A DNA stretch of 64,000 nt from the IMG/VR virus record IMGVR_UViG_3300045988_179859. One strand, written 5' to 3'. Below, piece by piece: positions 34,586 to 55,485 of this stretch; positions within the stretch are counted from its first letter, which is position 1; each line of letters starts with the position of its first letter. Origin of the DNA: a virus. The position numbers and the translations under genes were made by a program. The notes under the pieces were generated by a model, which had not been told where the DNA came from, made no database searches, and worked only from the letters and a program-made list of their open reading frames with translations.

Positions 34586-36565
34586 ATGGCTGAAGATAAA
34601 GAATTGAAAGGATCTATTCAAGGAAATGAATCTCCGCAGAATCCGCCAAAAGAACCGAAGTCATCGATTGAAAAAGCAGGTGACGAATTAAAGGAGCAAG
34701 CGAAGTCGGATCCAAAATTAAAAGATCCGGGTGGTAAAGGTCTTGATAAAGATCAACCAGAACCACCTTCGTTGAAGGATGCGTTCAAGAAAAACTCAAA
34801 CGATGATGGTGGTAAAGGTCTTCTTGGTAAAGCTAAGGGTAGCGGAAAAGGTTCGAAAAATGATTCTCCCGAAGATGCTTTAAAAGGAAAACTGCAAGAT
34901 ACCGGTAAGAAGATAGCAAAAGAAGCGGCAAAACCTGCGGGTAAAGCGGGAGCTGCGACTCTCGGTGGTAATATCTTTATGGGTGCGATGAATCAAGCGG
35001 CTACAGCGTCGGTTGGTTTGTTCGCGGCTATTCTCGGATTTATTGTCGACATGGTTGTCGGTATCGTTGGTTTTGTTGGTGGTCTGATTATGGGACTTCT
35101 GACGTTTACTTGGCAGATGGTCGTTATGGCCGTGTCTGGGACAATTGCTATTATTAGTGTTGTTGTGATGATTATTGCACAGAGTAACCAGGTACAGCGG
35201 GCTCGTGCTGCTGATGAAGCGTTCAGATGTAATGATGCCAACGTGGAGAATCGCGCGAAACAAAAGATTTCGGCGGCCAAGAAAGGTGAACTTTCTGCTG
35301 AAGATCAAGCCCGTGTTGATGAAAACTCTAAGAAAACACTTTCTGTGTTGACGAAATACGGATTGGACGAAACGCAAATTGCGGCTGTTTTGGGAGCTTG
35401 GAATTCTGAATCAAGTATTCAACCGAAACGTTATGAAACGGACTATATTGTTAAAGAAAAATATGATCAATTGGATAAAGATGGTCCTACAGCCGAATCA
35501 TTAGTAGGTGGTTGGGGTGCGTTTCTTGCAATGTATAATGGTACTGGTCTTAATGAGAGTGGTTATCTTCATGAAGGTAAACATTATATCGGGGTAGGTC
35601 TTGGTCAATGGACAGGTCCTCGTGCGAAACAATTGTGGGACTTTTCTAAGTCGATTAAAAAATCGATGTTCGACATGGATACTCAGTTGGCGTTTATGAT
35701 CAGTGATAACGATAGTGGTAAATCTCGATTGGATGCGTATAAAGAAGCGTCTAAAGGTAAATCTGTGGATGAAGCTACTGCGTTGTTCTTAGCAATGTGG
35801 GAGGGTGTGCCTGGTAATAAATTAGCAGCCCGACAACAGGCCGCCGCTGAACGTTTGATTGCGATTAAGAAGATGGATAAAGATGAAGCATATGCCGCGT
35901 CAATCTTATCTCTTGCAAACGTTAAAGCCTCTGCGGCAAATAGTAAACAGTCTAAATTGAATGAAAAAGATGACTGTGGTGTTGCTCTTAAAGATAGTGG
36001 AGCTGTTGATTATGCCGAAGATGGTACTGGTGAATTTCCTGCGGGTATTACGGGATACGCTTGGAAACCAAAGGATCTACCAAAAGAACTCAAACCGTAT
36101 GTGAAAGATCCAGCAAAAGTTGGAATGTCGTATGGTTCACGTAAAGGTTGGGCTGAAGGATCTGGGCAGTGTGTTGACTTGACTGAATCATATGGTACGT
36201 GGATTTGGAAGGGTGCTGTTTCTGTTGTTCAAGGTAATGGTAATCAACAAGCAAACGCTTGGGCTAATATTTTCGGAACAAAAGTTTCAAAAGATCCTAT
36301 TAAAGCCGGTTCTATTTTCTCAACACCTGGTCCGAGCAGTGCGGGTCATACCGGTATTGTGGTTCATATTTTTAAGAATCGCGATATTATGGTTGTAGAG
36401 CAGAATTTTGATAAGTTTTCAGGTTCTGATTTCGCCGGGTTGCCTAATACGTGGAATTATCGTTATATCAAAAAAGCTCAGTATGAACAAGAAGGTATGA
36501 CTTTTGCGGCACCTAAAGATGGTAAGCCTGATTGGGACGGCAAGGGAAAAACTTCTAAGAAATAA
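34586..36565 (+). CDS. bifunctional peptidoglycan hydrolase (lysozyme/muramidase-like plus C-terminal CHAP), VirB1 analogue
   Basis: glycine-zipper TM region; CHAP Cys (GSGQCVD) and His (AGHTGIV); central GLGQWTGPRA lytic domain. Confidence 0.8.
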   Translation: MAEDKELKGSIQGNESPQNPPKEPKSSIEKAGDELKEQAKSDPKLKDPGGKGLDKDQPEPPSLKDAFKKNSNDDGGKGLLGKAKGSGKGSKNDSPEDALKGKLQDTGKKIAKEAAKPAGKAGAATLGGNIFMGAMNQAATASVGLFAAILGFIVDMVVGIVGFVGGLIMGLLTFTWQMVVMAVSGTIAIISVVVMIIAQSNQVQRARAADEAFRCNDANVENRAKQKISAAKKGELSAEDQARVDENSKKTLSVLTKYGLDETQIAAVLGAWNSESSIQPKRYETDYIVKEKYDQLDKDGPTAESLVGGWGAFLAMYNGTGLNESGYLHEGKHYIGVGLGQWTGPRAKQLWDFSKSIKKSMFDMDTQLAFMISDNDSGKSRLDAYKEASKGKSVDEATALFLAMWEGVPGNKLAARQQAAAERLIAIKKMDKDEAYAASILSLANVKASAANSKQSKLNEKDDCGVALKDSGAVDYAEDGTGEFPAGITGYAWKPKDLPKELKPYVKDPAKVGMSYGSRKGWAEGSGQCVDLTESYGTWIWKGAVSVVQGNGNQQANAWANIFGTKVSKDPIKAGSIFSTPGPSSAGHTGIVVHIFKNRDIMVVEQNFDKFSGSDFAGLPNTWNYRYIKKAQYEQEGMTFAAPKDGKPDWDGKGKTSKK

Positions 36566-37405: not shown

Positions 37406-38064
37406 TGAAAAGAAATACAATCAATACAATTATTTTGACTGGCGCGGCTGTTATTAGTGCTAGTTTGATCGGATTTTCTGTAGTAACTGCGTCGCAAATG
37501 GATACGAAATATAGTCGTTTACAATCCGAATATAAAACGATGCAGACTGAAATTGCACGTAATCGTAAAGAAAATGTAAAAGTTGTAACTGAGACCGAGA
37601 AAAATATTCAGGGTGTCTCTAATCAACAACTTAAAGAAGATAAACGTCAAGCGAGTATTTATTTTGCACCAGCGTTCACATGGACGTCTGGTAATGAATA
37701 TGATGCAACACGCAAATCTTATATTGATAAACTTGGAACTGATTCGCAATTTGTACAGAATTATTTGAAAGAAAATATTCGAATTGAAGTTGCGAATAAG
37801 AATCTTAAAAACAATGATATCGACATTCAAGGTTTGAAATCAAACTTTGAAGAAATGGTGCTTTATCCAACAACGTGGAAGCCAGATGGTACTATTACGT
37901 ATGTTGGTGTTATTAAGTATTATGTGTTTAAGAACGAATCTGATTTGAATGATAAAACAGGACTTCTTAAATCAAAAGCCGTTGTTGAATTTACTATGTC
38001 TGGTGCTAATGCGAAAGACCGTCAAATTTCTGACGTGAAAGCATACGCTGGATCTCTCGAATAA
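37405..38064 (+). CDS. membrane-anchored protein, paralogue B'
   Basis: TAATG coupling; N-terminal TM. Confidence 0.6.
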   Translation: MKRNTINTIILTGAAVISASLIGFSVVTASQMDTKYSRLQSEYKTMQTEIARNRKENVKVVTETEKNIQGVSNQQLKEDKRQASIYFAPAFTWTSGNEYDATRKSYIDKLGTDSQFVQNYLKENIRIEVANKNLKNNDIDIQGLKSNFEEMVLYPTTWKPDGTITYVGVIKYYVFKNESDLNDKTGLLKSKAVVEFTMSGANAKDRQISDVKAYAGSLE

Positions 38065-38090
38065 TAGAAAGGAAAGGGTCTTCAATATCT

Positions 38091-38399
38091 ATGAACGTGA
38101 CATTTTTTGACACACATCCACGAACTAAATTAATTTATTACACGCTTGCCTTCTTTACATCAATTATTGTTTGGATTGCTGCAATTTTCTCTATTAGTGC
38201 GTCTGCGTATGTACTTATTATTGGAACAGGTGGTAATGCCGTATTGATGTTGGGGCTTGGAATTGTTTCGCTATTGCCGTTGAGTTTATTGATGACGATG
38301 TTTGCATACAATGGTATTAAAAAGCGTGGTGATCGAATGGTTTCTGCTTATAAATTAGAATGGTCAGAATTTAGAAAACGTCGTGCTGAAAAAAAGTAA
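38091..38399 (+). CDS. small 3-TM membrane protein
   Basis: 102 aa, hydrophobic. Confidence 0.5.
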   Translation: MNVTFFDTHPRTKLIYYTLAFFTSIIVWIAAIFSISASAYVLIIGTGGNAVLMLGLGIVSLLPLSLLMTMFAYNGIKKRGDRMVSAYKLEWSEFRKRRAEKK

Positions 38400-38410
38400 A
38401 AATTGGGTCT

Positions 38411-38440
38411 TGACATTTTTAGTTGAAAAGATATACAATA
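38411..38440 (+). promoter_or_regulatory. sigma-A promoter TTGACA-16/17-TATACAAT
   Basis: followed by 10-bp-stem hairpin 38444-38467 and a second hairpin 38478-38495 in the leader. Confidence 0.5.
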
Positions 38441-38532
38441 ATAGCGTAGTGAATACTACGCTATTATTTCTTTGCCGGTTTAAAGGAAACCGTGCACGCG
38501 GCTTTTTCCAGTCGTAAATGAAAGGAAAACAA

Positions 38533-39114
38533 ATGGCAGATTTTCGTGGTAAATCCTATAAGGATGTTCGATTGTATGTGGTTGACAAGCCAATTTTTGA
38601 GATCAAAAAGCAAGGCGAACCGACAGGACGTTATTGGATGAATATTTCCGCAGCGAACGATAAGTTTGAAAACGAGAAAGATTTTATTGATCGTCCATCG
38701 CTCGGATATGGTCGTCCATATCAAGATAAAAACGGTGAAACGCAGTATGATCATTCTATGGCATACAGTAAATCACAACTCGATCGAATTGCATCCGCAG
38801 TTGGGCTAGATCCAGAGAACTATGATGTTCAAGAACTTCGTGGGAAAACCTTCCGTGGTGATTTGATGCAAGCGTCATCTAAATCTCAAAAAGGTTTGAT
38901 CGTGAACACTAGTAAAATGCTTAAAGCAGATGAACCTTTGGATAAAGCAGCTCATGATGCAAATACAGCTCGTGCTGCAGAATTGAGACCTGAACGTGAC
39001 GCAGAAATTAAAGCGAAAGCACAGGAAGCATCTGAAAAAGCACCAGCGCCCGAAGTACAACAAGAAGCTGAATCTCAAGGTCTTGAGATCTCTGATGATG
39101 ATCTTCCGTTCTAA
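38533..39114 (+). CDS. SSB-like protein with canonical acidic tip …DDDLPF
   Basis: the C-terminal tip matches the SSB-Ct motif; N-terminal segment VRLYVVDKP…GRYWMNISAAND resembles the SSB OB fold (VILVGN…VRYMPNG.AVANITLAT). Confidence 0.6.
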   Translation: MADFRGKSYKDVRLYVVDKPIFEIKKQGEPTGRYWMNISAANDKFENEKDFIDRPSLGYGRPYQDKNGETQYDHSMAYSKSQLDRIASAVGLDPENYDVQELRGKTFRGDLMQASSKSQKGLIVNTSKMLKADEPLDKAAHDANTARAAELRPERDAEIKAKAQEASEKAPAPEVQQEAESQGLEISDDDLPF

Positions 39115-39180
39115 GTTGTACGGTTTGCTATGAAGGCAGATGAAAATCTGCCTTTCTTTTTTAAGTAAAGGATTAAAATC

Positions 39181-41040
39181 ATGGTTTATTTGACACAAAG
39201 ACAAACAATGGTTCCGCAACGTATGTTTGTATCAAGTATTATTGCGGAAAAAGATGAAAACGGAAATGTAATTCCGGATATGTATCGTATGGAATTAACA
39301 ATGGCTAATGATTTAGAGGGTCGTGTTGTTAATCCTGTATTGAATTCAAATGTTGATGATTCTGCGTCAATTTATTCAAAAGATGAATTAGTTGAATTGG
39401 CTAAGAATTTGGGAATCGATTTCGATGGTTCGAATATTAATGATTTAGAAGAAGCTCTTTATCGTGATAACTATGTGTTTGACGCTGAATTGTTGACTGT
39501 TAGTGACCCGGCTAAAGGTCGCTTGTCTTATCATATTGATACGACTCGTGTAAAAGAATCTGAACAACCGTTTGATTATAATGCACATCTTAAAAATACG
39601 TCAGAGTTGAATCAAGAATATATGCGTATGACACAAGATCCAAATAGTGTTTTGTACGCTGTGAATAAGCTTCGGTTAAGTGATTATGTTTCGTCTAGTA
39701 AAGCGAACGATTTAGAATCTATCTTTTATGCTGAGCGTGCGTTTCGAGATGGTGATGCTACGTATGCTGATGCTCGACCGTTAGATGTAGTGAATCGGTT
39801 ATCTGACAAGATCACGGTTAAAAGTAGTGATTTCACAATGTTCCGTGTATTCTCGAGCAATGAAGCGAAACAAATTAATGAAAGTAAAGTTCCGTTTGAG
39901 AAAGCGCTCGAAGATGAAGGGATCACATTAACGGCGGCTGATTATGAACCTCCTGTTGAAGAACGGGAACATGATCCCTATTCTGTTGTCGATATTGATG
40001 ATCTTGAGATTCCTAAAATGGAATACTTGGAACCTGAAATTCCGTCAGATGAAGAAATGGCTCGCTTAGAAGGTCGTGAAGACGAAGAACTCGAACGAGA
40101 ACGCTTACATCACGAAGACGATGAAATCCCTGTAGCTTCAAAACAAGAAGTTTCTGAAGAAAAAGCTGAAGAAGAGGTCGAACAATTACCTCGTGATGAG
40201 GAAGGTTTGCTTAAAGAAACAGGTGATCTAGAACCGTTTGATCGTAAAGATAAACGTATGTTTATAGATGGTGTTCCCGTAAAAGTTGTAACGGGACAGT
40301 CTGGCGAAACTCGGTATAATATTCCGCTCACGATGGCGAACGATAAACATGATCCATTAACAGCTTATGTTAAACCAAAATTGAACACCGCTAATCAATG
40401 GTATGGTCAAAACGATATGGATCGTATTGCAAACGTTACACACGTTCCTGTTGATTATGTGATGGAGGATTTCGATAAGAAAGCATTATCGGCTGATGTT
40501 ATTCGTAATGAAAAAGGTGAGTATCGTATGAATACTCGTACGTTGAAGCATGTTGATGATTTTGATTATGATAAACATGTGAAAGTTACGAAAGAAACAC
40601 AATCATTGTACGAATTATGGAGTAATGCGCTTAATTCGACAGGTAAAGCGTTGAAAGCAACAGCTAAAGATGCAATGTTCCGGGCTTATCAATTGAAAGA
40701 GCGTTTTGGTGAATGGCGTCATAACATTAAAGATGAATATGATGAATGGTCTCTCCACCAAGAAGGACGTCAAAAGACAAAACTGAAAGACAAGGTTTTG
40801 AATTTGAAAGAAGATTTGAGTGCGTGGTCGCGTGGTCAAGATGAATCACAAGGTTTTAAAACTCGATCTGAGCGTTATAAACAAACGAAAATGACGTCTA
40901 AATTTATGTCTAAGCTTGAAGCCGCTTATTGGAATCGTGCGCAGGGTATTGCGAATAAGTTTGGTTTTTCTTCTAAAGAAATCAATACACCTGAACAAGC
41001 AAGTCCTACTAAACAGGATGATTATGGATTGGGTCGGTAA
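39181..41040 (+). CDS. protein with two tandem SSB/OB-like modules (619 aa)
   Basis: internal duplication …MYRMELTMANDLEG… / …RYNIPLTMANDKHD…. Confidence 0.55.
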   Translation: MVYLTQRQTMVPQRMFVSSIIAEKDENGNVIPDMYRMELTMANDLEGRVVNPVLNSNVDDSASIYSKDELVELAKNLGIDFDGSNINDLEEALYRDNYVFDAELLTVSDPAKGRLSYHIDTTRVKESEQPFDYNAHLKNTSELNQEYMRMTQDPNSVLYAVNKLRLSDYVSSSKANDLESIFYAERAFRDGDATYADARPLDVVNRLSDKITVKSSDFTMFRVFSSNEAKQINESKVPFEKALEDEGITLTAADYEPPVEEREHDPYSVVDIDDLEIPKMEYLEPEIPSDEEMARLEGREDEELERERLHHEDDEIPVASKQEVSEEKAEEEVEQLPRDEEGLLKETGDLEPFDRKDKRMFIDGVPVKVVTGQSGETRYNIPLTMANDKHDPLTAYVKPKLNTANQWYGQNDMDRIANVTHVPVDYVMEDFDKKALSADVIRNEKGEYRMNTRTLKHVDDFDYDKHVKVTKETQSLYELWSNALNSTGKALKATAKDAMFRAYQLKERFGEWRHNIKDEYDEWSLHQEGRQKTKLKDKVLNLKEDLSAWSRGQDESQGFKTRSERYKQTKMTSKFMSKLEAAYWNRAQGIANKFGFSSKEINTPEQASPTKQDDYGLGR

Positions 41041-41119
41041 TCGACTTAAAATGTTGTCATTTTAAGAAAAAAATGATATAATAGACCTGCTATTAAATAA
41101 GAACTATACGAGGTACTAA

Positions 41120-42118
41120 ATGGAAACACTTGGACATCACGTTAATACTTCAAAAGGACGTGAAATTTTACGAACATTTGGTGGTCTCTTAACCACTGAA
41201 CAAATTAAAACAGATACTGAATTTCAGGTGAAATCTACTAAGCTTCGAATTCCTGGTCAGAAAGACATGGACGGTCGTATTCGTCGCCCATATCTTGATA
41301 TGGATGTTGAAGTGACGGGTATGGTTGTTAATAACGAAGGCTCGTCAGATGCTGTTCATTTTCCGAAACAAGACCGTTCTAAAATGCGTTATCGTTACGA
41401 ATTAGATGATCATGAACTTCAAGATTTGATTAGTCGTGGAATGTATCGTGATCGTAGTTTCGAACGCGATTTGGCACACGTTTTCTATAATCAACCGTTT
41501 ATTGATCGTACAAATGTAACAGTTCATACTACTAAAGTTAATTATGACGGTATTGCTGTTCCGTATGTGTTGGTTGATAATGTGGACACGTTGCTTGTTG
41601 ATTATGCGGAAAGCCGTGAAAATCAACAAGTTCGATCTGGTTTTAGTGTTGCGTTTGACGATGCAATGTTAATGATTGATAAAGCGGATCAATTGGCTAT
41701 TACGACTGCTCATAATGCTAAAGCGTTTGATGGTGTAGATTCTGAATTCGAAAGTGATCGTACAGTTGCGTTGACTCAATTGCTTGATGGAACGGAAGAC
41801 TATGCCGATCAATACAATATTGAATCTACTGGTTTTGACGAAACACCTGAAGACGAAGTTGTTGAAGAGCAACCTGTTATTGAAGATCCTATTTTGGCAC
41901 AGGATGTTAATAAATTGAGTGAATCACTCGATCTTCCAGAAGAGCTTCCTGTTGAGGAACCTGTAGTGGAACAACCTAAAGAAGATGTTGTTGAAGATGC
42001 GGAACCTGAGCATAAGAAGACTTTGAAAGAGCGTTTGGCTGAAATGGAATCTGAGAAACAAGAAAATGTTTCACGTGAAACAGATGAAAATGTTCTTGAT
42101 GACGATTTTGAATTTTAG
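41120..42118 (+). CDS. acidic protein with SSB-tip-like C terminus …DDDFEF
   Basis: 332 aa with acidic C-terminal third. Confidence 0.55.
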   Translation: METLGHHVNTSKGREILRTFGGLLTTEQIKTDTEFQVKSTKLRIPGQKDMDGRIRRPYLDMDVEVTGMVVNNEGSSDAVHFPKQDRSKMRYRYELDDHELQDLISRGMYRDRSFERDLAHVFYNQPFIDRTNVTVHTTKVNYDGIAVPYVLVDNVDTLLVDYAESRENQQVRSGFSVAFDDAMLMIDKADQLAITTAHNAKAFDGVDSEFESDRTVALTQLLDGTEDYADQYNIESTGFDETPEDEVVEEQPVIEDPILAQDVNKLSESLDLPEELPVEEPVVEQPKEDVVEDAEPEHKKTLKERLAEMESEKQENVSRETDENVLDDDFEF

Positions 42119-42123
42119 TTAGA

Positions 42124-42152
42124 AAAGAACGATTAAGTTCGTTCTTTTTTTT
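42124..42152 (+). terminator. rho-independent terminator
   Basis: aagaacg-N8-cgttctt followed by T8. Confidence 0.6.
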
Positions 42153-42174
42153 AGAATAGAAAGGGCAACTTACT

Positions 42175-44367
42175 TTGAAACGAGATATTGTTATTTCCAA
42201 TCATTTCACGACAAAACGTTCTGATGGTACGGCTACGAGGGGTGCGACACCCGGTCAATTTGTAACTCGATATATGAGTCGTGATGAAAAAGGAGCGACT
42301 GAGCCATTAGCGCCGTTTATGCTCGATGCTGAAGATACGTATAACAAAGGTACAAAACGCTATTATGCTCGAGAAGAAGAGATCGAAGGTATTAAGGCGG
42401 AAACCTTGGATCATGACGGTTTAGAAATTAAACGACGTTTTAAAAAGATAGACGGTCTTGGCGGTCGTGCTTTTGGTTCTCGTAATTTATCCTTGTCGGA
42501 TAGAGAATTAAAAGAAGAGTCTAATAAGATTCAGCAAGCGTTTGATGAAAATCATGCTGTACAATTAATGGTGATTTCTTTTTCTGAGAAGTTTTTGCGC
42601 GAATATGATGTATTAGATGATGATTTTGTATATAAGGGGGATGGGTCTTATCGTAATAACTATGATCAGATGAAACTGCGAATGGCTATTACGAGAGGTG
42701 TGTCTGACATGACGGATGTCGGTGGTTATGCGAATCCAGTATGGGTCGGTACGCTTCAGGTAGATACGTCACATTTGCATTGCCATTTGGCTTTGTGTGA
42801 TACTGACTTTTCAGATGCTCGTACGCGAGAGGGTGGCGATGACCGTGGTAAGATTTGGGATGCTGAGAAATCGGCAATGAGACATGGTATTGCTCGTCAA
42901 TTGGATTTGATGCGAGGATATTCGTTTCATCACAAGGGTACGCAAAAAGATCAAGAAAACGTTTTAGCCTTTGTTAAAGATGTGGACTTCCACGAAGCAT
43001 CGTATAATAGAGAACTTCAGCTAGTCATGGGATCGTTGCCTGAAGATAAAACTTTATGGAACACTGAATCGACAGATACGTCTATGAAATACCCTAACGA
43101 AGTCGCGCGCGGTTTTGTACAGCGCCTCTATATTGATTATCCCGAACAGACAGGTTATCGCGAAGCTTATGACCGAATTGTTTCTATGGCGGACGATGAA
43201 TCTTTTGTTGAGAACGGTCGTAAGGAACTGATCGATCGTGGCGTGAATGCACTGTACAGACAAATTGCGCAAGTTGATGATGGAGAAGTTTCTGTTAAGA
43301 CGGATCTATTGCGAGTGCAATCTATGGACGACGATAGTTTGAAGCGTGCCATTGTGGCACGTGGCGATCGCTTTGAAGAATTCGATCCGTACGGATTCGA
43401 GCTTCGTACGCGAGCTTATACTGGACGGATTCGTAAGCATGTGCGTGAAGTAGAATCGCAAGCGAAGAACTTGATCGAGTATAATAATAGTGCGCACACG
43501 GAAGACGCATCTCGTATGGGCGTCTATTATGCAACTGAACTGAGATACCATGCCGAAACAGCTGATAAGTATCGCTCGTTCTTTGCCTGGAATGTGAAGC
43601 GTGATAAAGAAGTTCGTGATAAGTACAACGCAGTCGAAGATACGTATACGATGCTTCGTGAGCGAAACAACTTATACGACAGTCCTATCGAAAACGTTGT
43701 AGAGAAATACGGCTATGATTCTGTACAGATTGCGCGCAAGAATCAGGACGAATTTAACGCACGTGTGCAACTTGATACGAACGTGACAGATGCTTCTTTA
43801 TTGTTTACGACGTCCGGTCGACGTGTTTATCGGGAGCATACTCGTGAGTTGGCGCGTCAGTATCGCATGCAAAATCAAACGTACGCCGTTTCTGCCTATG
43901 CAGGCGGTCAGTTGTCGGCTCCGATGCTTGTCGAGACATTAAACAACGGAGACACAGCCCCTTATGCACCACAAGCAATGAGCGATATGTATTCTAAAGA
44001 GTATTTTAACGAAGTTAAGGCGCATGATTTGCATGATTTAGATGTGGATTATTATGGGCAGTCATCTGTTGGTTTTACGCGACAGGTGGTTGAGCAGTTT
44101 GCTGACCAGTACAATAGGCGCCTGGAATCGTACGTGGGTGCTCGCGATTACTTGGAAGAGACTGACCAAAGTCTTGAGAGTATTCGTACGACTGAGCGCG
44201 ATTTGTATCGTATGCGAGACACGGTGGAGAAACTCTATGACGGTGAGTTTGAAGTGCCCGAATTGGTATTCGATGAAGCGAAGAAAAAGAAGCAGTTGGA
44301 AGAGACTATTACGCTCGATACCAATATTCAAGTGCTAGAATCTTTACATGAAGAGCTTAGTTTGTAA
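42175..44367 (+). CDS. conjugative relaxase (histidine-triad type)
   Basis: 3-His motif DTSHLHCHLAL; TTG start with SD AAAGGG. Confidence 0.75.
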   Translation: MKRDIVISNHFTTKRSDGTATRGATPGQFVTRYMSRDEKGATEPLAPFMLDAEDTYNKGTKRYYAREEEIEGIKAETLDHDGLEIKRRFKKIDGLGGRAFGSRNLSLSDRELKEESNKIQQAFDENHAVQLMVISFSEKFLREYDVLDDDFVYKGDGSYRNNYDQMKLRMAITRGVSDMTDVGGYANPVWVGTLQVDTSHLHCHLALCDTDFSDARTREGGDDRGKIWDAEKSAMRHGIARQLDLMRGYSFHHKGTQKDQENVLAFVKDVDFHEASYNRELQLVMGSLPEDKTLWNTESTDTSMKYPNEVARGFVQRLYIDYPEQTGYREAYDRIVSMADDESFVENGRKELIDRGVNALYRQIAQVDDGEVSVKTDLLRVQSMDDDSLKRAIVARGDRFEEFDPYGFELRTRAYTGRIRKHVREVESQAKNLIEYNNSAHTEDASRMGVYYATELRYHAETADKYRSFFAWNVKRDKEVRDKYNAVEDTYTMLRERNNLYDSPIENVVEKYGYDSVQIARKNQDEFNARVQLDTNVTDASLLFTTSGRRVYREHTRELARQYRMQNQTYAVSAYAGGQLSAPMLVETLNNGDTAPYAPQAMSDMYSKEYFNEVKAHDLHDLDVDYYGQSSVGFTRQVVEQFADQYNRRLESYVGARDYLEETDQSLESIRTTERDLYRMRDTVEKLYDGEFEVPELVFDEAKKKKQLEETITLDTNIQVLESLHEELSL

Positions 44368-44383
44368 AAAATATTGTCAAATT

Positions 44384-44412
44384 AGCGAAAACTTTTGCGT
44401 TTTCGCTTTTTA
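44384..44412 (+). terminator. hairpin/terminator agcgaaaac-tttt-gttttcgct
   Basis: 9-bp perfect stem followed by T-run. Confidence 0.55.
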
Positions 44413-44463
44413 TTTGATATAATGGACACATAGATTAAAAATAAACAGAAGGGATCTCACTAA

Positions 44464-45120
44464 ATGAAATATAATCCCGCGGTTCGAAAGAATATTCTTT
44501 TGCAAGAAATGACCGCTTATACTAACCAAGAAAACGTTGCTTTTACTGAAGCGTTGGCGGCTGTAGAGCAACTTGACGATAACACAAATGATGAACTTGC
44601 ACAAGCACTTGTTGCATTTATGCGTTCACTTGTTCATGATAATATTGCTCGTTCAAACCAAGTACGTAATGCTTTGAACACGTTCTTTGATGAAACAGGT
44701 GAGTTTGATGAAGATACTTATCTTTTGTTCAAACCGTATGAAGTTGTTGAACCCAAAGAAGAGTCTGTGGTTGAAACACAAGAGCATGTTGTTGAAGAAA
44801 AAGAAGCACCTGTCGTTGAAGAAGACGAACCGGTTGCTGATGAAGAACCAGTGAGCGAATCTGAAGAACAAGTTCAAGACGAAGTTGTTGAGTCTGAAGA
44901 AGAAGTGGTTCCGACAGACGTTTCTGAAGAAGATGCTGAAGTCTTGGCTACTTTGCCAGAAGATGCTGAAGTCTTGGCTACTTTGCCAGAAGATGATGAG
45001 GCTGAAACCGAAGAAGTTGACGTAATTGGTGATGTTTTTGGTACGTCTGAAGAAGAATTGAAAACTCGTGATCGGGCTGAAGCATTGAGTGCTGAAATCG
45101 AATTACCAGATTCGTTGTAA
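44464..45120 (+). CDS. acidic protein with tandem repeat (218 aa)
   Basis: perfect 30-bp duplication at 44931-44990 encoding EDAEVLATLP twice. Confidence 0.6.
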   Translation: MKYNPAVRKNILLQEMTAYTNQENVAFTEALAAVEQLDDNTNDELAQALVAFMRSLVHDNIARSNQVRNALNTFFDETGEFDEDTYLLFKPYEVVEPKEESVVETQEHVVEEKEAPVVEEDEPVADEEPVSESEEQVQDEVVESEEEVVPTDVSEEDAEVLATLPEDAEVLATLPEDDEAETEEVDVIGDVFGTSEEELKTRDRAEALSAEIELPDSL

Positions 45121-45131
45121 AGGGTGGTGCT

Positions 45132-47138
45132 ATGGATCGTTTTGAATTAGAAGAACATCTATTAGGCCAGGAACAAACAGTTGAACGTGTATCGGACAAA
45201 GGAGAGCGTAAAACACAAACGGAATACGTTTTTCCTATGTTGCGTGACTATGCGAAACCATTGACACCGTTGACATTTCCTGTTGAGGGACGTGATCATG
45301 AAATCGGATTGATTCAAGAAACGTTTGCTCGCGCGTCTGTGTCAAATATCTTCTTACGAGGTCCAGCCGGGGTTGGTAAAACGACTTTGGTTCGGGCGAT
45401 GATTAAAGAAGATAAAAATCGTCTTTACTTTGAAGTGGATCTTCCAAAGATGACCGCTGTTGAATCAAGTGGTGAAGATGTAAACTCTGTTATTGCACGA
45501 CGTATGCAGGCGATGCTTGATGAAGTTAAAGAATTCGGTCGACGTGCTCGGGCGATTTTAGCGTCTGAGGGTGTTAAAGAGATGATTGATATTGTGTTGT
45601 TCATCGATGAATTTCACTTGCTATTTCAATTGTCACCAGCCGCGGTTGAAGCAATGAAACCTGACTTAGCGGATTCTGTTAAACGGAATATTCGTGTAGT
45701 TGGGGCGACAACGAATGATGAGTATTACAAGTATCGTATTGATGACAACTTGCCATTCATTGAACGTTTTGTTTCAATTCAATTGTTCCCACCTAATGAT
45801 ACTCAAGTTATTGAAATCTTGAAAGGTTCTGCAAATGACGCAATCGCTCGAGATTTTACGTTGAAAGATAAATTTAGAAACAAAGGTATCTATTCACAAA
45901 TTGTTGAGTATACAAACCGATATATTCCGGCTTCAAGTCAACCGCGTAAAGCATTGATGATGTTGGATTCACTTATCGGGGCAGCTCGTTATCGTAATAT
46001 TCCAGTTACCCGAAAATTATTAGCTGAAAAGATTTACGATTTAGTTGGTGTAAACGTTGCAATTAACGTTGATGGTCAACAAATCAAGTCACAATTATCT
46101 GATCGGGTATATGACCAGGATTTAGCGATTGATGCGATTGAGCGTTATCTTCAATTAGTCGTTGCCGACTTGTATGATAAGTCTCGACCTATGGCTTCGT
46201 TCTTATTTACGGGTGCCAGCGGGGTCGGTAAAACGGAATTAGCAAAAGCTTTAGCCTTTGTAATGTTCGGTAAAGATGATGCGATGATTCGTTTTAATAT
46301 GTCAGAGTACTCTGAAGAACATCGTGTAACGGCTTTACGTGAAGAACTAGCACGACAAATCGATATTAAGCCATTCTCAATTCTTCTACTGGACGAAATT
46401 GAGAAAGCTCATCCGTCTTGTACGCGTTTGTTGCTTCAAATTTTGGACGATGGTGAATTATCTGACCAAAACGGACGTTTGAAATCGTTTAAGAATACAA
46501 TTATTATTTCGACAACTAACGTCGGTGCTGATGTGTATTCTGAGATCGCTCCGTATTTGAAAGGTCGTGGATCATCTACAGCAATGGCTTTGTTGAAATA
46601 CAAACCGTTAATTTTGAAAGCGTTACGCGATAGCAAGTCGTTTCCGAATGAGTTGATTAACCGTTACAATGCGGTAATTCCATTTACGCCACTACAAAAT
46701 GAAACGAAATTGAAGATTGCTCATAAGAAATTAAAAGATCTTCGTCAAGATGTTTTCTATAAACATGGATATGACTTGCGTGTTGGTGCGGAAGTTGCTA
46801 CATGGCTCGTTTATCAAAAAGGTGGCGGTGTTGCTACAGAAGATGGTGGTGCTCGTGGTATTGTACGTGCACTGGATGATGATTTCAAAACAGCAATCGC
46901 TCGGGCTATTAATAATGGCGAAGCGTTAGAAGGCAAACTATATGCGGCTGTTGATCCTGAACCGGATCAACCAGATCCAGATCGTAAACGGGATATGGCA
47001 TTTACGGATGACTTCCATAAAGAAGATATCTCTAAAGTGTTTGTCGGTGATATGGTGTATGCTACGGCGCTTTCAGCGAAGAACAAAGACGCTATTGCAA
47101 GATGGCATGAAAAACAAAGAAACAATAAGTACAAATGA
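45132..47138 (+). CDS. Clp/Hsp100-family double AAA+ ATPase (ClpL-like size)
   Basis: D1 Walker A GPAGVGKT preceded by EGRDHEI; D2 GASGVGKTELAKALA and LLLDEIEKAHP…LLQILDDG. Confidence 0.85.
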   Translation: MDRFELEEHLLGQEQTVERVSDKGERKTQTEYVFPMLRDYAKPLTPLTFPVEGRDHEIGLIQETFARASVSNIFLRGPAGVGKTTLVRAMIKEDKNRLYFEVDLPKMTAVESSGEDVNSVIARRMQAMLDEVKEFGRRARAILASEGVKEMIDIVLFIDEFHLLFQLSPAAVEAMKPDLADSVKRNIRVVGATTNDEYYKYRIDDNLPFIERFVSIQLFPPNDTQVIEILKGSANDAIARDFTLKDKFRNKGIYSQIVEYTNRYIPASSQPRKALMMLDSLIGAARYRNIPVTRKLLAEKIYDLVGVNVAINVDGQQIKSQLSDRVYDQDLAIDAIERYLQLVVADLYDKSRPMASFLFTGASGVGKTELAKALAFVMFGKDDAMIRFNMSEYSEEHRVTALREELARQIDIKPFSILLLDEIEKAHPSCTRLLLQILDDGELSDQNGRLKSFKNTIIISTTNVGADVYSEIAPYLKGRGSSTAMALLKYKPLILKALRDSKSFPNELINRYNAVIPFTPLQNETKLKIAHKKLKDLRQDVFYKHGYDLRVGAEVATWLVYQKGGGVATEDGGARGIVRALDDDFKTAIARAINNGEALEGKLYAAVDPEPDQPDPDRKRDMAFTDDFHKEDISKVFVGDMVYATALSAKNKDAIARWHEKQRNNKYK

Positions 47139-51636: not shown

Positions 51637-54600
51637 ATGGGGAAATTTAAAAATCCATTAAAAGTGAAACCTCAAACAGGTTATCAAAAAATGAAAAGTC
51701 TCCCGGTCGATCAATATGGTAAATATCGAGATCGTATCAATAGCCAACAAGCAGCTCGTAAGATTCGAAATACGCAAGGCTACGATTCGTCAAAGGTGTT
51801 TGGTTTGGTTGGCGGAATCGGGACGTTTATTTCAGGCTTAGGCGCTACGTGGGTAGTTTCGGTCATGTATCGAGCGATCAACGGGATGATGAATGGTAAA
51901 GGTTCATCTGCATTATCATCGGCGTCCATGTCGTTACCCTGGTGGGCGTGGCCTGTCAATCTATTAGTAGGGACTATGGTCGGATTTATCGTTTACGATA
52001 AATTCAAGAGGAAACAGAGCACAGATCGTATTTTAGATGAAGATGGTCAACTGAACGATTATACGTCAGACGGTCACGTTATGTATAAAGAAGAAATTGT
52101 AGAACGTTTTCCAGTTTTTCCTGACCGTGGTGCTCATAGTAGTGTGAAGCCGTCAGCTATTTTAAGCCATGCGTTTTTATCGAATAAAGGTGTTCCCGCG
52201 GTTATGATGACAAAACGTTATACCGCTGACGTTATTGTTCCAAACGAGGATGATCCTGAAGATTTTGAGATTTTTTATGAAGGTGAAGAGGTTCTTGATA
52301 GTGAGGGGAACCCAATCCTTGAAAAGAAACCGATGATCGATATGGATAAGGGTGGCGAAGTTTTCGATAAAATTAGTATTTTCGAAGGCAACCCTCAACG
52401 TGTATTCGATCATGCAAAAGAATTAGTGTTCGATAGTGAAGGTAAGGCTAGAGGTGACGACCAATCAGCTCCGTATAAGTCATTGATCGATATGATGAAC
52501 AATGATTGGGAGATTCCAGCTTACGAACGACAACGTCCAACGGGTGTCTATTTCGTTGATACAGCGCCGGTAAACGTTATGATTCTCGCTATTACTAGGG
52601 CTGGTAAGGGACAGACATATATTGAAGCGCTTCTTGACATGTGGACTCGGGAAAAACGGCAATGGAATATCGTAAACAATGACCCTAAAGGAGAGCTTCT
52701 TGTTAAGTTCTATGTGCGGGCAACTATTCGTGGATATGACATTGTACAGTTTAACTTGATCAATCCTATGAAGACGGATATCTTCAATCCTCTTGGTTAT
52801 GCGGTAGAAGCTGCGCGTGAAGGACGTATGGAGAAAGTTGCCGAGTATTTGACCAACTTGTCTTCTGTATTCTTCCCGAAAGATGGTGGTGAGGATCCGG
52901 TATGGCCTCAATCTGCGTCAGCTGCATTTGAACGTACTTGTCTTGCGCTTATTGACTTCTATCGAGAAGAAGAAATGGAAATGCGTCGTCGGGCAGAACT
53001 CGATGGGCGTAACGTTCACTTGCTTGATGCTGAAATTAATAACATGTGGGGTAAAGTAACGCTTTATAATGTGTTTAAGATGTTTTCAAGTTTGGTTTCT
53101 AAGAAAGAAACTGACCCGATGAAAACATGGGTTAAAGAAGAAGACAAGCCACCGACGGTTATTAACGATGAGACTGGTGAAGAAGTTCTTGATCCATCTG
53201 TTAAGCCAACTGAAAAAGTGTTGCTTGATTTGTTCTTCGATGCGACAGAAGCGTTGCCGAAAAACCGTATGCGCGATCTTTTGGACTCATCTAATAAGAC
53301 CTTGAAATCGATGATGCAAAGTGAAAAAATGCTTAGTTCTGTATACGGAATCGCTACAGCATCAATGCGTTTCTTCACTGACCCAACGATTATTGCCTTG
53401 ACTTCAGGTACAGCTTCTCAGAACTTTGACATTGAGTCACTGTCATTCCCACGTCGGGTGGCCGTTCGATTCACATCTGAGTGGATGGCTCGTTATAAAT
53501 ACGCTGGTAAGTTGGTTCGTTGGTCTGCATGGACAGATGATACCTTTACAGAAGAACTAGATCCGAAACTTTTTGGACATTCATTTAATATCGGTCGTGA
53601 TGGTTGGGTTCATTACGCCTTTGATGGTAAATTCGAAGGACGTGATGGCTATATTAAGATGGAAATCGTCAACCCTGATAATAATGTTCCGATGAAGATT
53701 TTCTATTTTAAAGCACGTCTTGATTATCTGACACGACTTGATGGTAAGTCCTTCATTAAGAATCCTGTTACGAAAGAGAAGATTCTTCGAAATGGTACTT
53801 TGACCGAATTGCGTCCGGTTAAAGATAAAGAAGGTCGTCGTAAGTTTGTTCCTCGTAACACTATGATTAAGAAGACGGTTAAAGATTTCCGTAATTATAG
53901 CGAGGGCGGACGTAATTTACGAGATAAGGAAATTGAAGTTCATGCGTTTTCTGATTTGAAATTGCGTTATACGGACAAACCGAAATTTGTAAACTTTATT
54001 ACACCTCCGCACTTGACGGCTTATGCTCGTTTGATTTTGATCTTGATTAAACAGGTTACAGACTCTGCGTTTTCTAGTGCGTATTTGACGAAGGCGAATC
54101 AAAAACCGCTTTATGGTACGAACTACATGTTAGACGAGTTGGGTAACTTGCAGTCGGACGGTCATGGTATTAACGACTTGGAAACACTTCTTTCTATCGG
54201 TTTGTCTGCCGATCAACGTTTCCACTTGATTCTGCAAACACTCCAACAGCTTGAAGCGGTTTATGGTGGTGATAAGAATAAGATTATCTCTGGTAACTCG
54301 AACGATTTGATCTTCTTGAAATCTAATGACGTAACGATGATTGATGATTTGGTTGCTGTTGCAGGTAAACGTCACGTTGAACGTGTTAATAGCTTGACGG
54401 TTTCTGAAAATACTCAATCGCGTGTTCAAAAGACAGACGGTCGTATTTCGAAAACGAAAACTGTGCTTGAAGAAGATGTTATTTCTCGAAATGAATTCTT
54501 GCGATTGGATAAGTTTGGTGCGATTGTAATGCGTGCGGGTGATGATCCTATTTATAACTATGGAGCATCATCTCTGCCTCCAGTATTTGCAATGCAAAAC

Positions 54601-55485
54601 GATACGATTCAAGAGCCTGGTGTAGAATATACACTTCAAACCATTCCAACTATGTCTTCTGTGTTGGAATTTGACCCAGAAAAGAATCAGCCGAACTTTT
54701 ATGCGATGCTTGAGAAACGTTTGTCGCAAGCCCGTTTAGTTGAAGAAATGGAAAGTAAGTATCGTGGAGCATACGGTTATAGTCAGCATGATATTGATAT
54801 TATGGATGCTGATGAGTATGCGCGTGACATTATGGATGCAGTTAATGATGAGCTTTATGAAATTGAACAAGATTACTTAGCTCAACATGAATTAGATGAT
54901 GAAATGACGTCTTCTGGTAATGCATCTGTTATGTATGAAAATATTGCTCGTGAACGTGAAGCTTCGATTACGGTTAATGTTGATTACGAAAAAGCTGTGA
55001 CGAAAGCTGAAAAAGAATTGGTTCCAGATTATCGTGAAAAAATCTATGCTGGCGGAATGGTTAGTCGTGATATGTTGGTTAGTCAACACGGTAAAGGTTT
55101 GAGTGGCGGTACTGGTATGGATGCTGTTGTTATTGAAGCTGTACTCAAGACTAAATCACAATTCATGGGTGACACTAAATTCCGTTGGGATGATGATAAA
55201 CAAATCTTGTCAAATGTGGCTGGTGTTCGATTTGTAAGTTATGATCCATCGGTTAAAGAATACGAAAAGAGTGCTCAAGACCCTAATTCGAAAGTCTATA
55301 TGGAAGCAACTGATGGTCTTGCTCTTGAGGGATACCGCGTTGAACCGGAGTTTTACGAATATCTTGCAAAATTAGATTCTTGGGAGTCTATTGCGGGCGG
55401 TTCGTTCGATAAGACCGTTCGTGATATTTGTAATCGTCGTGAAAATACGATTGACACCGATGCTCCTGAAGACGAAGAATTCTAA
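51637..55485 (+). CDS. type IV coupling protein (VirD4/TraG family), 1282 aa
   Basis: 2 N-terminal TM; Walker A AITRAGKGQT (compare VirD4 APTRSGKGVG); YMLDELGNL box. Confidence 0.85.
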   Translation: MGKFKNPLKVKPQTGYQKMKSLPVDQYGKYRDRINSQQAARKIRNTQGYDSSKVFGLVGGIGTFISGLGATWVVSVMYRAINGMMNGKGSSALSSASMSLPWWAWPVNLLVGTMVGFIVYDKFKRKQSTDRILDEDGQLNDYTSDGHVMYKEEIVERFPVFPDRGAHSSVKPSAILSHAFLSNKGVPAVMMTKRYTADVIVPNEDDPEDFEIFYEGEEVLDSEGNPILEKKPMIDMDKGGEVFDKISIFEGNPQRVFDHAKELVFDSEGKARGDDQSAPYKSLIDMMNNDWEIPAYERQRPTGVYFVDTAPVNVMILAITRAGKGQTYIEALLDMWTREKRQWNIVNNDPKGELLVKFYVRATIRGYDIVQFNLINPMKTDIFNPLGYAVEAAREGRMEKVAEYLTNLSSVFFPKDGGEDPVWPQSASAAFERTCLALIDFYREEEMEMRRRAELDGRNVHLLDAEINNMWGKVTLYNVFKMFSSLVSKKETDPMKTWVKEEDKPPTVINDETGEEVLDPSVKPTEKVLLDLFFDATEALPKNRMRDLLDSSNKTLKSMMQSEKMLSSVYGIATASMRFFTDPTIIALTSGTASQNFDIESLSFPRRVAVRFTSEWMARYKYAGKLVRWSAWTDDTFTEELDPKLFGHSFNIGRDGWVHYAFDGKFEGRDGYIKMEIVNPDNNVPMKIFYFKARLDYLTRLDGKSFIKNPVTKEKILRNGTLTELRPVKDKEGRRKFVPRNTMIKKTVKDFRNYSEGGRNLRDKEIEVHAFSDLKLRYTDKPKFVNFITPPHLTAYARLILILIKQVTDSAFSSAYLTKANQKPLYGTNYMLDELGNLQSDGHGINDLETLLSIGLSADQRFHLILQTLQQLEAVYGGDKNKIISGNSNDLIFLKSNDVTMIDDLVAVAGKRHVERVNSLTVSENTQSRVQKTDGRISKTKTVLEEDVISRNEFLRLDKFGAIVMRAGDDPIYNYGASSLPPVFAMQNDTIQEPGVEYTLQTIPTMSSVLEFDPEKNQPNFYAMLEKRLSQARLVEEMESKYRGAYGYSQHDIDIMDADEYARDIMDAVNDELYEIEQDYLAQHELDDEMTSSGNASVMYENIAREREASITVNVDYEKAVTKAEKELVPDYREKIYAGGMVSRDMLVSQHGKGLSGGTGMDAVVIEAVLKTKSQFMGDTKFRWDDDKQILSNVAGVRFVSYDPSVKEYEKSAQDPNSKVYMEATDGLALEGYRVEPEFYEYLAKLDSWESIAGGSFDKTVRDICNRRENTIDTDAPEDEEF

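What the first reader, a model, noticed from the sequence alone, without database searches (positions are those of the whole stretch)
38400..42118. Trio of divergent ssDNA-binding-like proteins bearing canonical SSB C-terminal tips immediately upstream of the relaxase
The 198-aa protein ends …EISDDDLPF, which is the SSB-Ct interaction motif, and has an N-terminal segment resembling the SSB OB fold. The next 619-aa protein contains two copies of the same module (LTMAND motif). The third, 332 aa, ends …VLDDDFEF. Plasmid leading regions often carry one SSB. Three different proteins built from this module, two of them with host-SSB-mimicking tails that could recruit host partners such as PriA, RecO or ExoI to transferred ssDNA, is unusual.
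Basis: partly seen in the sequence, partly recalled or inferred. Interest (0 to 1): 0.6.

Follow-up and report, generated by a model that had tools for sequence, protein, structure and literature searches.

The report
SSB-tailed OB-fold proteins beside relaxase
Just upstream of the DNA-nicking enzyme of an uncultured giant conjugative element lie two related proteins with a predicted ssDNA-binding-type (OB) fold, one of which carries an exact copy of the Gram-positive SSB partner-docking tail, and a third, unrelated acidic protein, so this is a new variant of the known OB-fold helpers of conjugation, not three copies of one SSB module.

Summary
All three ORFs and both tails are real. P1 (193 aa from the likely start at 38533) ends EISDDDLPF, which matches the Gram-positive SsbA tip (DISDDDLPF). 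The tip is kept in homologues about 60% identical while the linker before it drifts.

P2 (619 aa) does contain two copies of the P1 module (BLASTP 5e-6 and 6e-4; hhalign E 1e-6). It has no SSB-like tip.

P3 (332 aa, ends DDDFEF) shows no detectable relation to that module and lacks the canonical Pro, so this is a pair plus one rather than a trio.

In distant metagenomic elements the order P1-like, P3-like, MobL relaxase is conserved. The remote P1-like proteins have other acidic tails. The coupling protein also keeps an acidic tail ending in an aromatic residue.

The most likely reading is that P1, P2 and P3 are DNA-processing accessory proteins of a MobL system, comparable to HelP and OrfL/OrfM. 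In this reading P1 is a divergent SSB-like adaptor to host SSB partners. That makes it a new variant of a known kind, of moderate interest.

The parts
38410..38439 (+). Sigma-70-like promoter (TTGACA, 18 nt, TACAAT) upstream of P1
   Evidence: It matches 11 of 12 consensus positions. It is conserved in L014 and L016.
38437..38468 (.). Perfect 14-bp inverted repeat (AATAATAGCGTAGT gaat ACTACGCTATTATT). It could be an operator, a 5'UTR hairpin or an oriT hairpin.
   Evidence: Found and unique in the window. The single-stranded DNA fold is -21.4 kcal/mol, z -6.1. L016 keeps the stem through a compensatory change, GCG/CGC to GAG/CTC.
38533..39114 (+). P1, 193 aa (198 aa if translation starts at 38518). 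It has a beta-rich OB-like core (about residues 12-124), helices at 138-169 and a disordered acidic tail at 173-193.
39085..39111 (+). P1 C-terminal tip EISDDDLPF, matching the Gram-positive SsbA SSB-Ct motif
   Evidence: Translation. Conservation. SaSsbA ends DISDDDLPF and S. mutans SsbA ends DDDLPF. The tip alone produces the PHROG 378 SSB hit.
39132..39155 (+). Terminator-like hairpin with a T-run after P1
   Evidence: Found (10-bp stem, 4 G-C pairs).
39181..39630 (+). P2 module N (residues 1-150), a copy of the P1 module. It is acidic (pI 4.4).
39946..40212 (+). P2 acidic low-complexity linker (residues 256-344, net charge about -26)
40213..40620 (+). P2 module C (residues 345-480), the second and best-conserved copy of the module
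40621..41040 (+). P2 C-terminal basic segment (residues 481-619, pI 9.6). It has no SSB-like tip and ends DDYGLGR.
41054..41082 (+). Promoter-like site (TTGTCA, 17 nt, TATAAT, with a TG before the second hexamer) upstream of P3
41120..42118 (+). P3, 332 aa, a separate family. It has an N-terminal beta-rich domain (about residues 24-138), a long acidic disordered C-terminal half (net charge -35) and the tip DDDFEF at 42098-42115.
42175..44367 (+). MobL-family relaxase, 730 aa
   Evidence: Pfam PF18555, E 9e-29, 101 bits against a cut-off of 28.5. Identity to plasmid MobL proteins is 25-33%.
44464..45120 (+). Very acidic 218-aa protein (net charge -53) following the relaxase
   Evidence: It is present in all related loci.
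45132..47138 (+). Clp-like double AAA+ ATPase, 668 aa
   Evidence: Pfam AAA_2, E 3.5e-36. NCBIfam gives partial ClpA, ClpB and ClpV hits.
51637..55485 (+). Type IV coupling protein, 1282 aa, with a conserved acidic tail ending in an aromatic residue (...APEDEEF)
   Evidence: Pfam T4SS-DNA_transf, TraG-D_C and TrwB_AAD_bind. Tails are shown.

Best explanation
P1, P2 and P3 are accessory DNA-processing proteins of a MobL-type conjugation module on an uncultured giant element. Its contigs reach 390 kb and are known only from metagenomes.

P1 and the two modules of P2 belong to a previously undescribed family with a strongly diverged OB-like fold. I infer that P1 binds the single-stranded DNA exposed at or after nicking. 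Its flexible acidic tail ends in the exact Gram-positive SsbA tip (D/E-I-S-D-D-D-L-P-F). Through that tip P1 would plug the transferred or unwound strand into the host proteins that normally dock on SSB, such as primosome, recombination-mediator and helicase factors.

P2 is a tandem-module paralogue without the tip. It probably acts as a scaffold or a cooperative DNA-binding partner.

P3 belongs to a different family that travels with MobL. Its long acidic tail ends in Phe, like the tail of the coupling protein. It probably mediates protein-protein docking within the relaxosome and coupling-protein complex rather than acting as an SSB.

Shown: gene order, homologies, tail conservation and the predicted fold. 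Inferred: DNA binding, partner recruitment and the role in transfer.
For: Fold:
- The P1 model is confident (pLDDT 82.7, pTM 0.74), with the order beta1-3, helix, beta4-5, then helices and a disordered tail.
- The top Foldseek BFVD hit is annotated as a phage SSB (E 2e-4), and several DUF669 proteins follow. DUF669 and N4-like proteins are regarded as highly diverged OB-fold SSBs with acidic tails (PMC4889955).
- Equally low scores were reported for the solved plasmid OB protein PrgE.

Tail:
- The tip is the same as SsbA over 8-9 residues and is conserved while the linker varies.

Family:
- P2 holds two copies of the module.
- A profile search of 1.84 billion proteins found only 21 hits at E 0.001 or better. 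Fifteen of them are small proteins of 159-231 aa with the same ND and H..NT motifs and acidic tails.

Context:
- Four of the five remote relatives I looked up lie in the order lysozyme/CHAP, small genes, P1-like, P3-like, MobL.
- The same order holds in closer lineages.
- P1 has its own strong promoter and a terminator-like hairpin, which fits an abundantly made protein.
- tblastn finds no canonical SSB in the 64-kb window.

Precedent:
- The OB-fold proteins HelP, OrfL/OrfM and Orf22/23 are encoded beside the relaxase, and HelP, OrfL and OrfM are reported as essential for transfer (PMC12614216).
Against: - No sequence method connects the module to any SSB or OB family.
- The single SSB hit, PHROG 378 at E 1e-5, vanishes when the tail is cut off.
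- The modules are not basic. The P1 core has pI 7.8, P2 module N has pI 4.4 (net -13) and module C has pI 5.6. That argues against strong generic ssDNA coating, at least for P2.
- Remote P1-like proteins do not carry the SSB tip. They end ELEA, GPEM, LDK, VEIV or GPAF. Host-SSB mimicry is therefore a feature of one lineage and not the family's core function.
- The OB-like assignment for P3 rests on a low-confidence model (pLDDT 54).
- SaSsbA-Ct peptide did not bind SaPriA in vitro (PMC5531588), so partner recruitment by this tip in Firmicutes cannot be assumed.
Confidence: 0.5

Rival explanations
1. Tail-docking network with no SSB function. The acidic tails ending in an aromatic residue on P1, P3 and the coupling protein would be interchangeable ligands for one element-encoded receptor. 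Candidates are the relaxase, the basic C-terminal domain of P2 or the Clp-like AAA+ ATPase. The OB-like modules would be protein-interaction scaffolds, and the likeness of the P1 tip to SsbA would be convergence on a generic 'acidic plus LPF' ligand.
For: - Only 3 of 93 ORFs of 80 aa or more in the window end in an acidic stretch plus an aromatic residue: P1, P3 and the coupling protein.
- The coupling-protein tail keeps this character at 70% identity: DTDEEF, EDDTDY, EDVDTDF, EDVDTEF.
- P3-like tails in distant elements also end in an acidic stretch plus Phe: EDELDF, FDDPNF.
- Remote P1-like tails are acidic but not SSB-like.
- The acidic tail of F TraD docks on the relaxosome protein TraM (PMC3159463).
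- The P2 modules are acidic.
- In S. mutans, a C-terminal LPF is recognised by the AAA+ unfoldase ClpX (PMC5143411).
Against: - The P1 tip matches SsbA over 8-9 residues, including I-S and L-P. That is more than a generic acidic-aromatic tail needs.
- The P3 and coupling-protein tails differ from it in having no Pro.
- No receptor has been identified.
- The fold hits are dominated by DNA binders.
Confidence: 0.2
2. Decoy of the host SSB interactome, acting in establishment or counter-defence. P1 would display the SSB tip to draw host nucleases or helicases that dock on SSB (RecJ, RecQ, ExoI-like) away from incoming ssDNA, or to damp the SOS response. It might be delivered to the recipient through the T4SS.
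For: - The SSB-Ct tip sits on a protein whose core is not an SSB by sequence.
- F-like plasmids translocate their SSB and PsiB to recipients to suppress mating-induced SOS (PMC8406263, title and abstract).
- P1 is a separate transcription unit with a strong promoter.
Against: - The gene lies inside the transfer and relaxase gene block, not in an identified leading region.
- The family is syntenic with MobL even where the SSB tip is absent.
- PADLOC finds no defence-related family for P1, P2 or P3.
- There is no evidence of translocation.
Confidence: 0.12
3. Classical relaxosome DNA-binding auxiliaries of the pLS20 Aux1/Aux2 or TraM/TraY type, meaning sequence-specific oriT binders. Under this reading the tails are incidental.
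For: - The position directly upstream of a MobL relaxase is the same as that of aux1 and aux2 in pLS20 (PMC5675868).
- A conserved inverted repeat lies upstream of P1.
Against: - Aux1, Aux2, TraM and TraY are ribbon-helix-helix proteins. The P1 model is beta-rich and OB-like, and Pfam gives no RHH hit for P1, P2 or P3.
- The tails are strongly conserved.
Confidence: 0.08

Closest known systems
HelP (ICEBs1), OrfL/OrfM (ICESt3) and Orf22/Orf23 (Tn916): OB-fold relaxosome auxiliaries
   Same: They are small OB-fold proteins, often present as two paralogues, encoded next to the relaxase of a Gram-positive conjugative element. OrfL and OrfM bind DNA only weakly and act as protein adaptors to the relaxase and the host PcrA helicase (PMC12614216).
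   Different: - I found no Pfam or solved-structure match that would tie P1, P2 or P3 to any described OB family. HelP, OrfL and OrfM sequences were not compared directly.
- The partner relaxase here is MobL, not MOBT.
- P1 has a long helical and acidic extension ending in an SSB-Ct tip.
- P2 fuses two modules in one 619-aa chain.
Plasmid-encoded SSBs (F SSB and relatives)
   Same: Both are proteins of a conjugative element that carry the SSB C-terminal tip and therefore have potential access to the host SSB interactome.
   Different: Plasmid SSBs are true members of the SSB family (PF00436) and lie in the leading region. The P1 core is not an SSB by any sequence test, and P1 lies in the relaxase gene block.
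PrgE of pCF10
   Different: PrgE is not next to the relaxase, is not essential for conjugation, has no SSB-Ct tip and shows no sequence relation to P1.
Viral divergent OB-fold SSBs: DUF669 and N4-like, T7 gp2.5-like, baculovirus LEF-3
   Same: These give the best fold matches. They share the architecture of a diverged OB core followed by an acidic C-terminal tail (PMC4889955).
   Different: There is no Pfam DUF669 hit. TM-scores are only 0.2-0.38. The P1 family is linked to conjugation genes and not to phage replication genes, with the exception of one relative (L013).
pLS20 Aux1/Aux2 with the MobL relaxase RelLS20
   Same: They are two accessory genes immediately upstream of a MobL-family relaxase.
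   Different: Aux1 and Aux2 are ribbon-helix-helix proteins. P1 and P3 are beta-rich, much larger and have acidic tails.
F TraD C-terminal tail binding TraM
   Same: A flexible acidic tail on a conjugation protein docks on a relaxosome component. The coupling protein here has such a tail too.
   Different: The receptor here is unknown. No TraM-like protein was identified.

Membership tests
Bacterial SSB (Pfam PF00436 / TIGR00621) | The N-terminal OB domain matches the SSB profile | tested here: not met
   Pfam gives no SSB hit for P1, P2, P3 or any of 20 P1-like proteins. TIGR00621 scores E 0.93, 9.8 bits against a cut-off of 53.95, and only over the tail. PDB sequence and profile searches are empty.
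Bacterial SSB (Pfam PF00436 / TIGR00621) | C-terminal tip D-D-D-[IL]-P-F (SSB-Ct) | tested here: met
   This holds for P1 only. P1 ends EISDDDLPF, and the tip is conserved in the family. P3 ends DDDFEF or FGDF without Pro, and P2 ends DDYGLGR; neither meets the criterion.
Bacterial SSB (Pfam PF00436 / TIGR00621) | A disordered linker lies between the core and the tip | tested here: met
   P1 residues 173-193 have pLDDT below 50. The linker varies in sequence and length across homologues.
Bacterial SSB (Pfam PF00436 / TIGR00621) | Cooperative ssDNA binding as a homotetramer or dimer | not testable with these tools
   This needs EMSA, SEC-MALS or similar experiments.
DUF669 / N4-like viral SSBs | Match to the DUF669 profile | tested here: not met
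   No hit at E 1 or better for P1 or for 19 relatives.
DUF669 / N4-like viral SSBs | Diverged OB core plus an acidic C-terminal tail | tested here: inconclusive
   Foldseek matches to DUF669 proteins have probability 0.97-0.99, but TM-scores are only 0.33-0.36. The acidic tail is present.
HelP / OrfL / OrfM OB-fold relaxosome auxiliaries | Sequence membership in the family | tested here: inconclusive
   No Pfam family matches any P1-like protein at E 1 or better, and profile searches of solved-structure sequences are empty. HelP, OrfL and OrfM sequences were not compared directly.
HelP / OrfL / OrfM OB-fold relaxosome auxiliaries | OB fold | tested here: inconclusive
HelP / OrfL / OrfM OB-fold relaxosome auxiliaries | Encoded beside the relaxase of a conjugative element | tested here: met
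   The order P1, P2, P3, MobL holds in the window. The order P1-like, P3-like, MobL holds in L005, L008, L011, L012, L014 and L016.
HelP / OrfL / OrfM OB-fold relaxosome auxiliaries | Interacts with the relaxase or a host SF1 helicase and is needed for transfer | not testable with these tools
   This needs two-hybrid assays and conjugation assays.
Ribbon-helix-helix relaxosome auxiliaries (Aux1/Aux2, TraM, TraY) | N-terminal RHH DNA-binding fold | tested here: not met
   The P1 model is beta-rich and OB-like. The low-confidence P3 model also begins with beta strands. Pfam gives no RHH hit for P1, P2 or P3.
MobL relaxases (for the neighbouring gene) | Match to PF18555 above the gathering score | tested here: met
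   101.1 bits against a cut-off of 28.5, E 9.2e-29, residues 3-382.

The most novel reading that the evidence does not exclude
The conserved acidic tails ending in an aromatic residue on P1, P3 and the coupling protein could form a tail-exchange code. It would be analogous to the T7 gp2.5/gp4 tails (recalled from memory) and to TraD-TraM. The code would be read by an element-encoded receptor, perhaps the Clp-like AAA+ ATPase encoded just after the relaxase. Because the P1 tail is also the host SsbA tip, P1 would link the host replication-restart and recombination machinery to the transfer apparatus. SSB-like proteins might even be unfolded and exported with the DNA into the recipient.
Probability: 0.1. 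Interest if true: 0.75.

Novelty: new variant of a known kind. Interest (0 to 1): 0.5.

Why it matters
OB-fold relaxosome helpers were recognised only recently, and only for MOBT elements. The one characterised MobL system, pLS20, uses ribbon-helix-helix auxiliaries.

This locus suggests a second, unrelated OB-like family. It is absent from Pfam, the PDB, PLSDB and the GTDB species-representative genomes. It is coupled to MobL relaxases in large uncultured elements.

One member has acquired the exact host SSB docking tip. If that tip is functional, it is a simple route by which a mobile element could connect its transferred strand to host replication and repair factors. It would also be a handle for studying how these giant elements transfer and establish.

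Tried and rejected
1. The PHROG 378 'SSB' hit of P1 (E 1e-5) is not evidence of core homology. It disappears when the last 19 or 43 residues are removed.
2. P3 as a third copy of the module is rejected. BLASTP, hhalign with narrow profiles and hhalign with broadened profiles are all negative.
3. The Rhodococcus pGS01 412-aa protein upstream of MobL is not shown to be a P3 homologue. The gene order is the same, but hhalign gives only E 0.016 and 2.8% probability.
4. Identity with 'Inocle' elements is not established. The paper reports 32% or 24% GC, whereas this window is about 36-43%.
5. Known plasmids and phages gave nothing. Megablast and tblastn against PLSDB and tblastn against the phage collection found no relatives of P1, P0144 or P3.
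6. Two GTDB genome scans were empty, so no host could be named.
7. Rfam found no RNA family in 37900-45200. PADLOC found nothing for P1, P2 or P3.
8. The afdb50 fold library was unavailable.
9. A phmmer search of the PDB with the tail peptide returned only designed repeat proteins.


Full report
**Observation.** The three + strand ORFs exist as described: 38518-39114 (198 aa), 39181-41040 (619 aa) and 41120-42118 (332 aa). I call them P1, P2 and P3. The next gene, 42175-44367, is a MobL-family relaxase (PF18555, 101 bits, E 9e-29). P1 ends EISDDDLPF and P3 ends DDDFEF. The real P1 start is probably the ATG at 38533, giving 193 aa. AAAGGA lies 7 nt upstream, and every homologue begins MAD.

**Context.** The region is a conjugative transfer block.
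- A lysozyme plus CHAP cell-wall hydrolase lies at 34586-36565.
- A topoisomerase lies at 20847-23345.
- A very acidic 218-aa protein and a Clp-like double AAA+ ATPase follow the relaxase.
- A 1282-aa VirD4-type coupling protein lies at 51637-55485.

**Are the three proteins one module?** P1 and P2 are related; P3 is not.
- P1 matches P2 twice by BLASTP: P2 residues 60-141 at E 5e-6 and residues 345-466 at E 6e-4.
- The P1 and P2 family profiles align at 91% probability, E 1e-6.
- A joint alignment of the P1 family with both halves of P2 keeps R13, G28, A41-N42-D43, L57, Y78, A87 and H141 invariant.
- P3 shows nothing by BLASTP or by hhalign with family profiles. Profiles broadened with distant homologues of both families also show nothing.
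- The locus therefore holds a pair (P1 plus a tandem-module P2) and one unrelated protein.

**Is the module an SSB?** By sequence it is not.
- Pfam gives no hit for P1, P2, P3 or any of 20 P1-like proteins.
- TIGR00621 scores 9.8 bits against a cut-off of 54, and only over the tail.
- PDB sequence and profile searches are empty.
- P1 does hit PHROG 378, 'single strand DNA binding protein', at E 1e-5. I repeated the search with P1 truncated at residue 150 or 174 and the hit disappeared. The tail alone produces it.

By predicted fold the answer is a qualified yes.
- AlphaFold2 on the module alignment gave pLDDT 82.7 and pTM 0.74. The model has strands at residues 12-79, a helix at 80-89, strands at 106-124, helices at 138-169 and a disordered tail at 173-193.
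- In the viral structure library the best Foldseek match is annotated as a phage SSB (E 2e-4), and several DUF669 proteins follow.
- DUF669 and N4-type proteins have been proposed to be highly diverged OB-fold SSBs with acidic tails (PMC4889955).
- Low scores of this kind were also reported for the solved OB protein PrgE (PMC11137577).

**The tails.**
- The P1 tip equals the Gram-positive SsbA tip. SaSsbA ends DISDDDLPF, and IDISDDDLPF is usually conserved in Gram-positive bacteria (PMC5531588). S. mutans SsbA ends DDDLPF (PMC5143411).
- In P1 homologues of about 60% identity the tip is D-I-[ST]-D-[DE]-D-L-P-F, while the preceding linker changes in sequence and length. That pattern indicates selection on the tip.
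- P3 homologues end DDDFEF or EDDF[GD]FGDF. These tails are acidic with a terminal Phe but lack the penultimate Pro that defines SSB-Ct, so they are not canonical.
- P2 ends DDYGLGR or KEFELE.
- Among the 93 ORFs of 80 aa or more in the window, only three end in an acidic stretch plus a terminal aromatic residue. They are P1, P3 and the coupling protein, which ends ...APEDEEF.
- Coupling-protein relatives at about 70% identity end DTDEEF, EDDTDY, EDVDTDF or EDVDTEF, so that tail is also conserved in character.

**Distribution and synteny.**
- All three families are small and are known only from metagenome assemblies. At 90% clustering there are 20, 41 and 51 clusters respectively. Where a source gives a name at all, it is 'hypothetical protein'. 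Contigs reach 245-390 kb.
- PLSDB, the phage collection and the GTDB representative genomes gave no match.
- One 229,674-bp contig is filed in IMG/VR.
- A profile search of 1.84 billion representatives found only 21 hits. Fifteen are new proteins of 159-231 aa with the same motifs and acidic tails, but those tails are not SSB-like: ELEA, GPEM, LDK, VEIV, GPAF.
- I looked up five of these remote relatives. Four lie in the order lysozyme/CHAP, small genes, P1-like, protein of 267-371 aa, MobL. The fifth lies in a phage-like context.
- The 267-aa and 321-aa proteins are P3 homologues (E 2e-17 and 9e-7). They end FDDPNF and EDELDF.
- P2 is confined to the window's clade.
- The conserved unit is therefore P1-like, P3-like, MobL. 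The SSB tip and the tandem P2 are innovations of one lineage.

**Local anatomy.**
- P1 has a near-consensus promoter at 38410-38439. It runs into a unique, perfect 14-bp inverted repeat at 38437-38468. The single-stranded DNA fold of this region has z -6.1.
- The stem is preserved by a compensatory change in a relative.
- A terminator-like hairpin follows P1 at 39132-39155, and a promoter-like site precedes P3.
- The repeat could be an operator, an mRNA leader hairpin or part of oriT. I could not decide among these.
- The window contains no canonical ssb gene.

**Interpretation.** The closest functional precedent is the recently described group of OB-fold relaxosome auxiliaries: HelP of ICEBs1, OrfL/OrfM of ICESt3 and Orf22/23 of Tn916. 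They are encoded beside the relaxase. [quoted passage not shown] The pLS20 MobL system instead uses ribbon-helix-helix auxiliaries.

I conclude that P1, P2 and P3 are DNA-processing accessory proteins of a MobL system. P1 is a diverged SSB-like OB protein whose SsbA-identical tip gives access to host SSB partners. P2 is a tip-less tandem paralogue. P3 is an unrelated MobL-linked protein whose tail probably docks on another component. I put my confidence at about 0.5.

Several observations weaken the simple 'SSB' reading and keep three rivals open (a tail-docking network, a host-interactome decoy and a classical oriT binder).
- The modules are neutral to acidic: pI 7.8, 4.4 and 5.6.
- The tip is absent from remote relatives.
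- SaSsbA-Ct peptide failed to bind SaPriA in vitro.

**Verdict.** The locus is a new variant of a known kind: OB-fold accessory proteins of conjugative DNA processing, and SSB-tip-bearing proteins of mobile elements. Interest is moderate (0.5).

Noticed in passing
window 51637-55485; L018-L030: The 1282-aa coupling protein ends in an acidic tail with a terminal aromatic residue (...APEDEEF). Relatives at about 70% identity keep this character: EDDTDY, EDVDTDF, EDVDTEF. It resembles the P1 and P3 tails and the F TraD tail that binds TraM.
   Followed up: partly
window 38410-38468: A near-consensus promoter runs into a unique, perfect 14-bp inverted repeat (single-stranded DNA fold z -6.1). The repeat is preserved by a compensatory change in L016. 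It could be an operator, a leader hairpin or an oriT hairpin.
   Followed up: partly
window 42123-42148: An AT-rich 10-bp hairpin followed by a T-run lies between P3 and the MobL start. It cannot be conserved in L016, where the called genes leave a spacer of only 20 nt.
   Followed up: no
L003 12664-13842; L014 11175-12494: Relatives carry mobile insertions inside the gene trio. An IS605 OrfB/TnpB-like gene lies between P2 and P3 in L003. A group II intron reverse transcriptase lies between P1 and P2 in L014. The three genes therefore tolerate being separated.
   Followed up: no
window 44464-47138; L010 4995-9802: The order MobL, small protein, AAA+ ATPase recurs on a Staphylococcus aureus plasmid (MobL, 165 aa, AAA family ATPase). 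In the window the small protein is highly acidic. In the window the ATPase is a Clp-like double AAA+ protein with no obvious protease partner nearby.
   Followed up: no
L009 (Rhodococcus fascians pGS01, NZ_CP140265.1 100001-114343): This actinobacterial plasmid has the same gene order: tail-tip lysozyme, two hypothetical genes, a membrane protein, a 412-aa protein and MobL. The 412-aa protein carries a P3-like 'G-[ML]-Y' motif, but homology is not significant.
   Followed up: partly
L013 136-639: One remote P1-like protein (P0148) lies not beside a relaxase but among phage-like genes (metallophosphatase, GIY-YIG, RNase H, HD). This hints at a viral origin for the module.
   Followed up: no
window 1-64000: The element is known only from metagenomes, with contigs up to 390,697 bp (BNJT01001543.1). 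One 229,674-bp contig is filed as viral in IMG/VR. The window also carries a class A PBP, a PASTA protein, a GbpC/SSSPR surface protein, a ParM-like actin, a D5-type primase-helicase and a cytosine methylase. Several large proteins in the transfer region (655, 1587 and 768 aa) have no Pfam match.
   Followed up: partly
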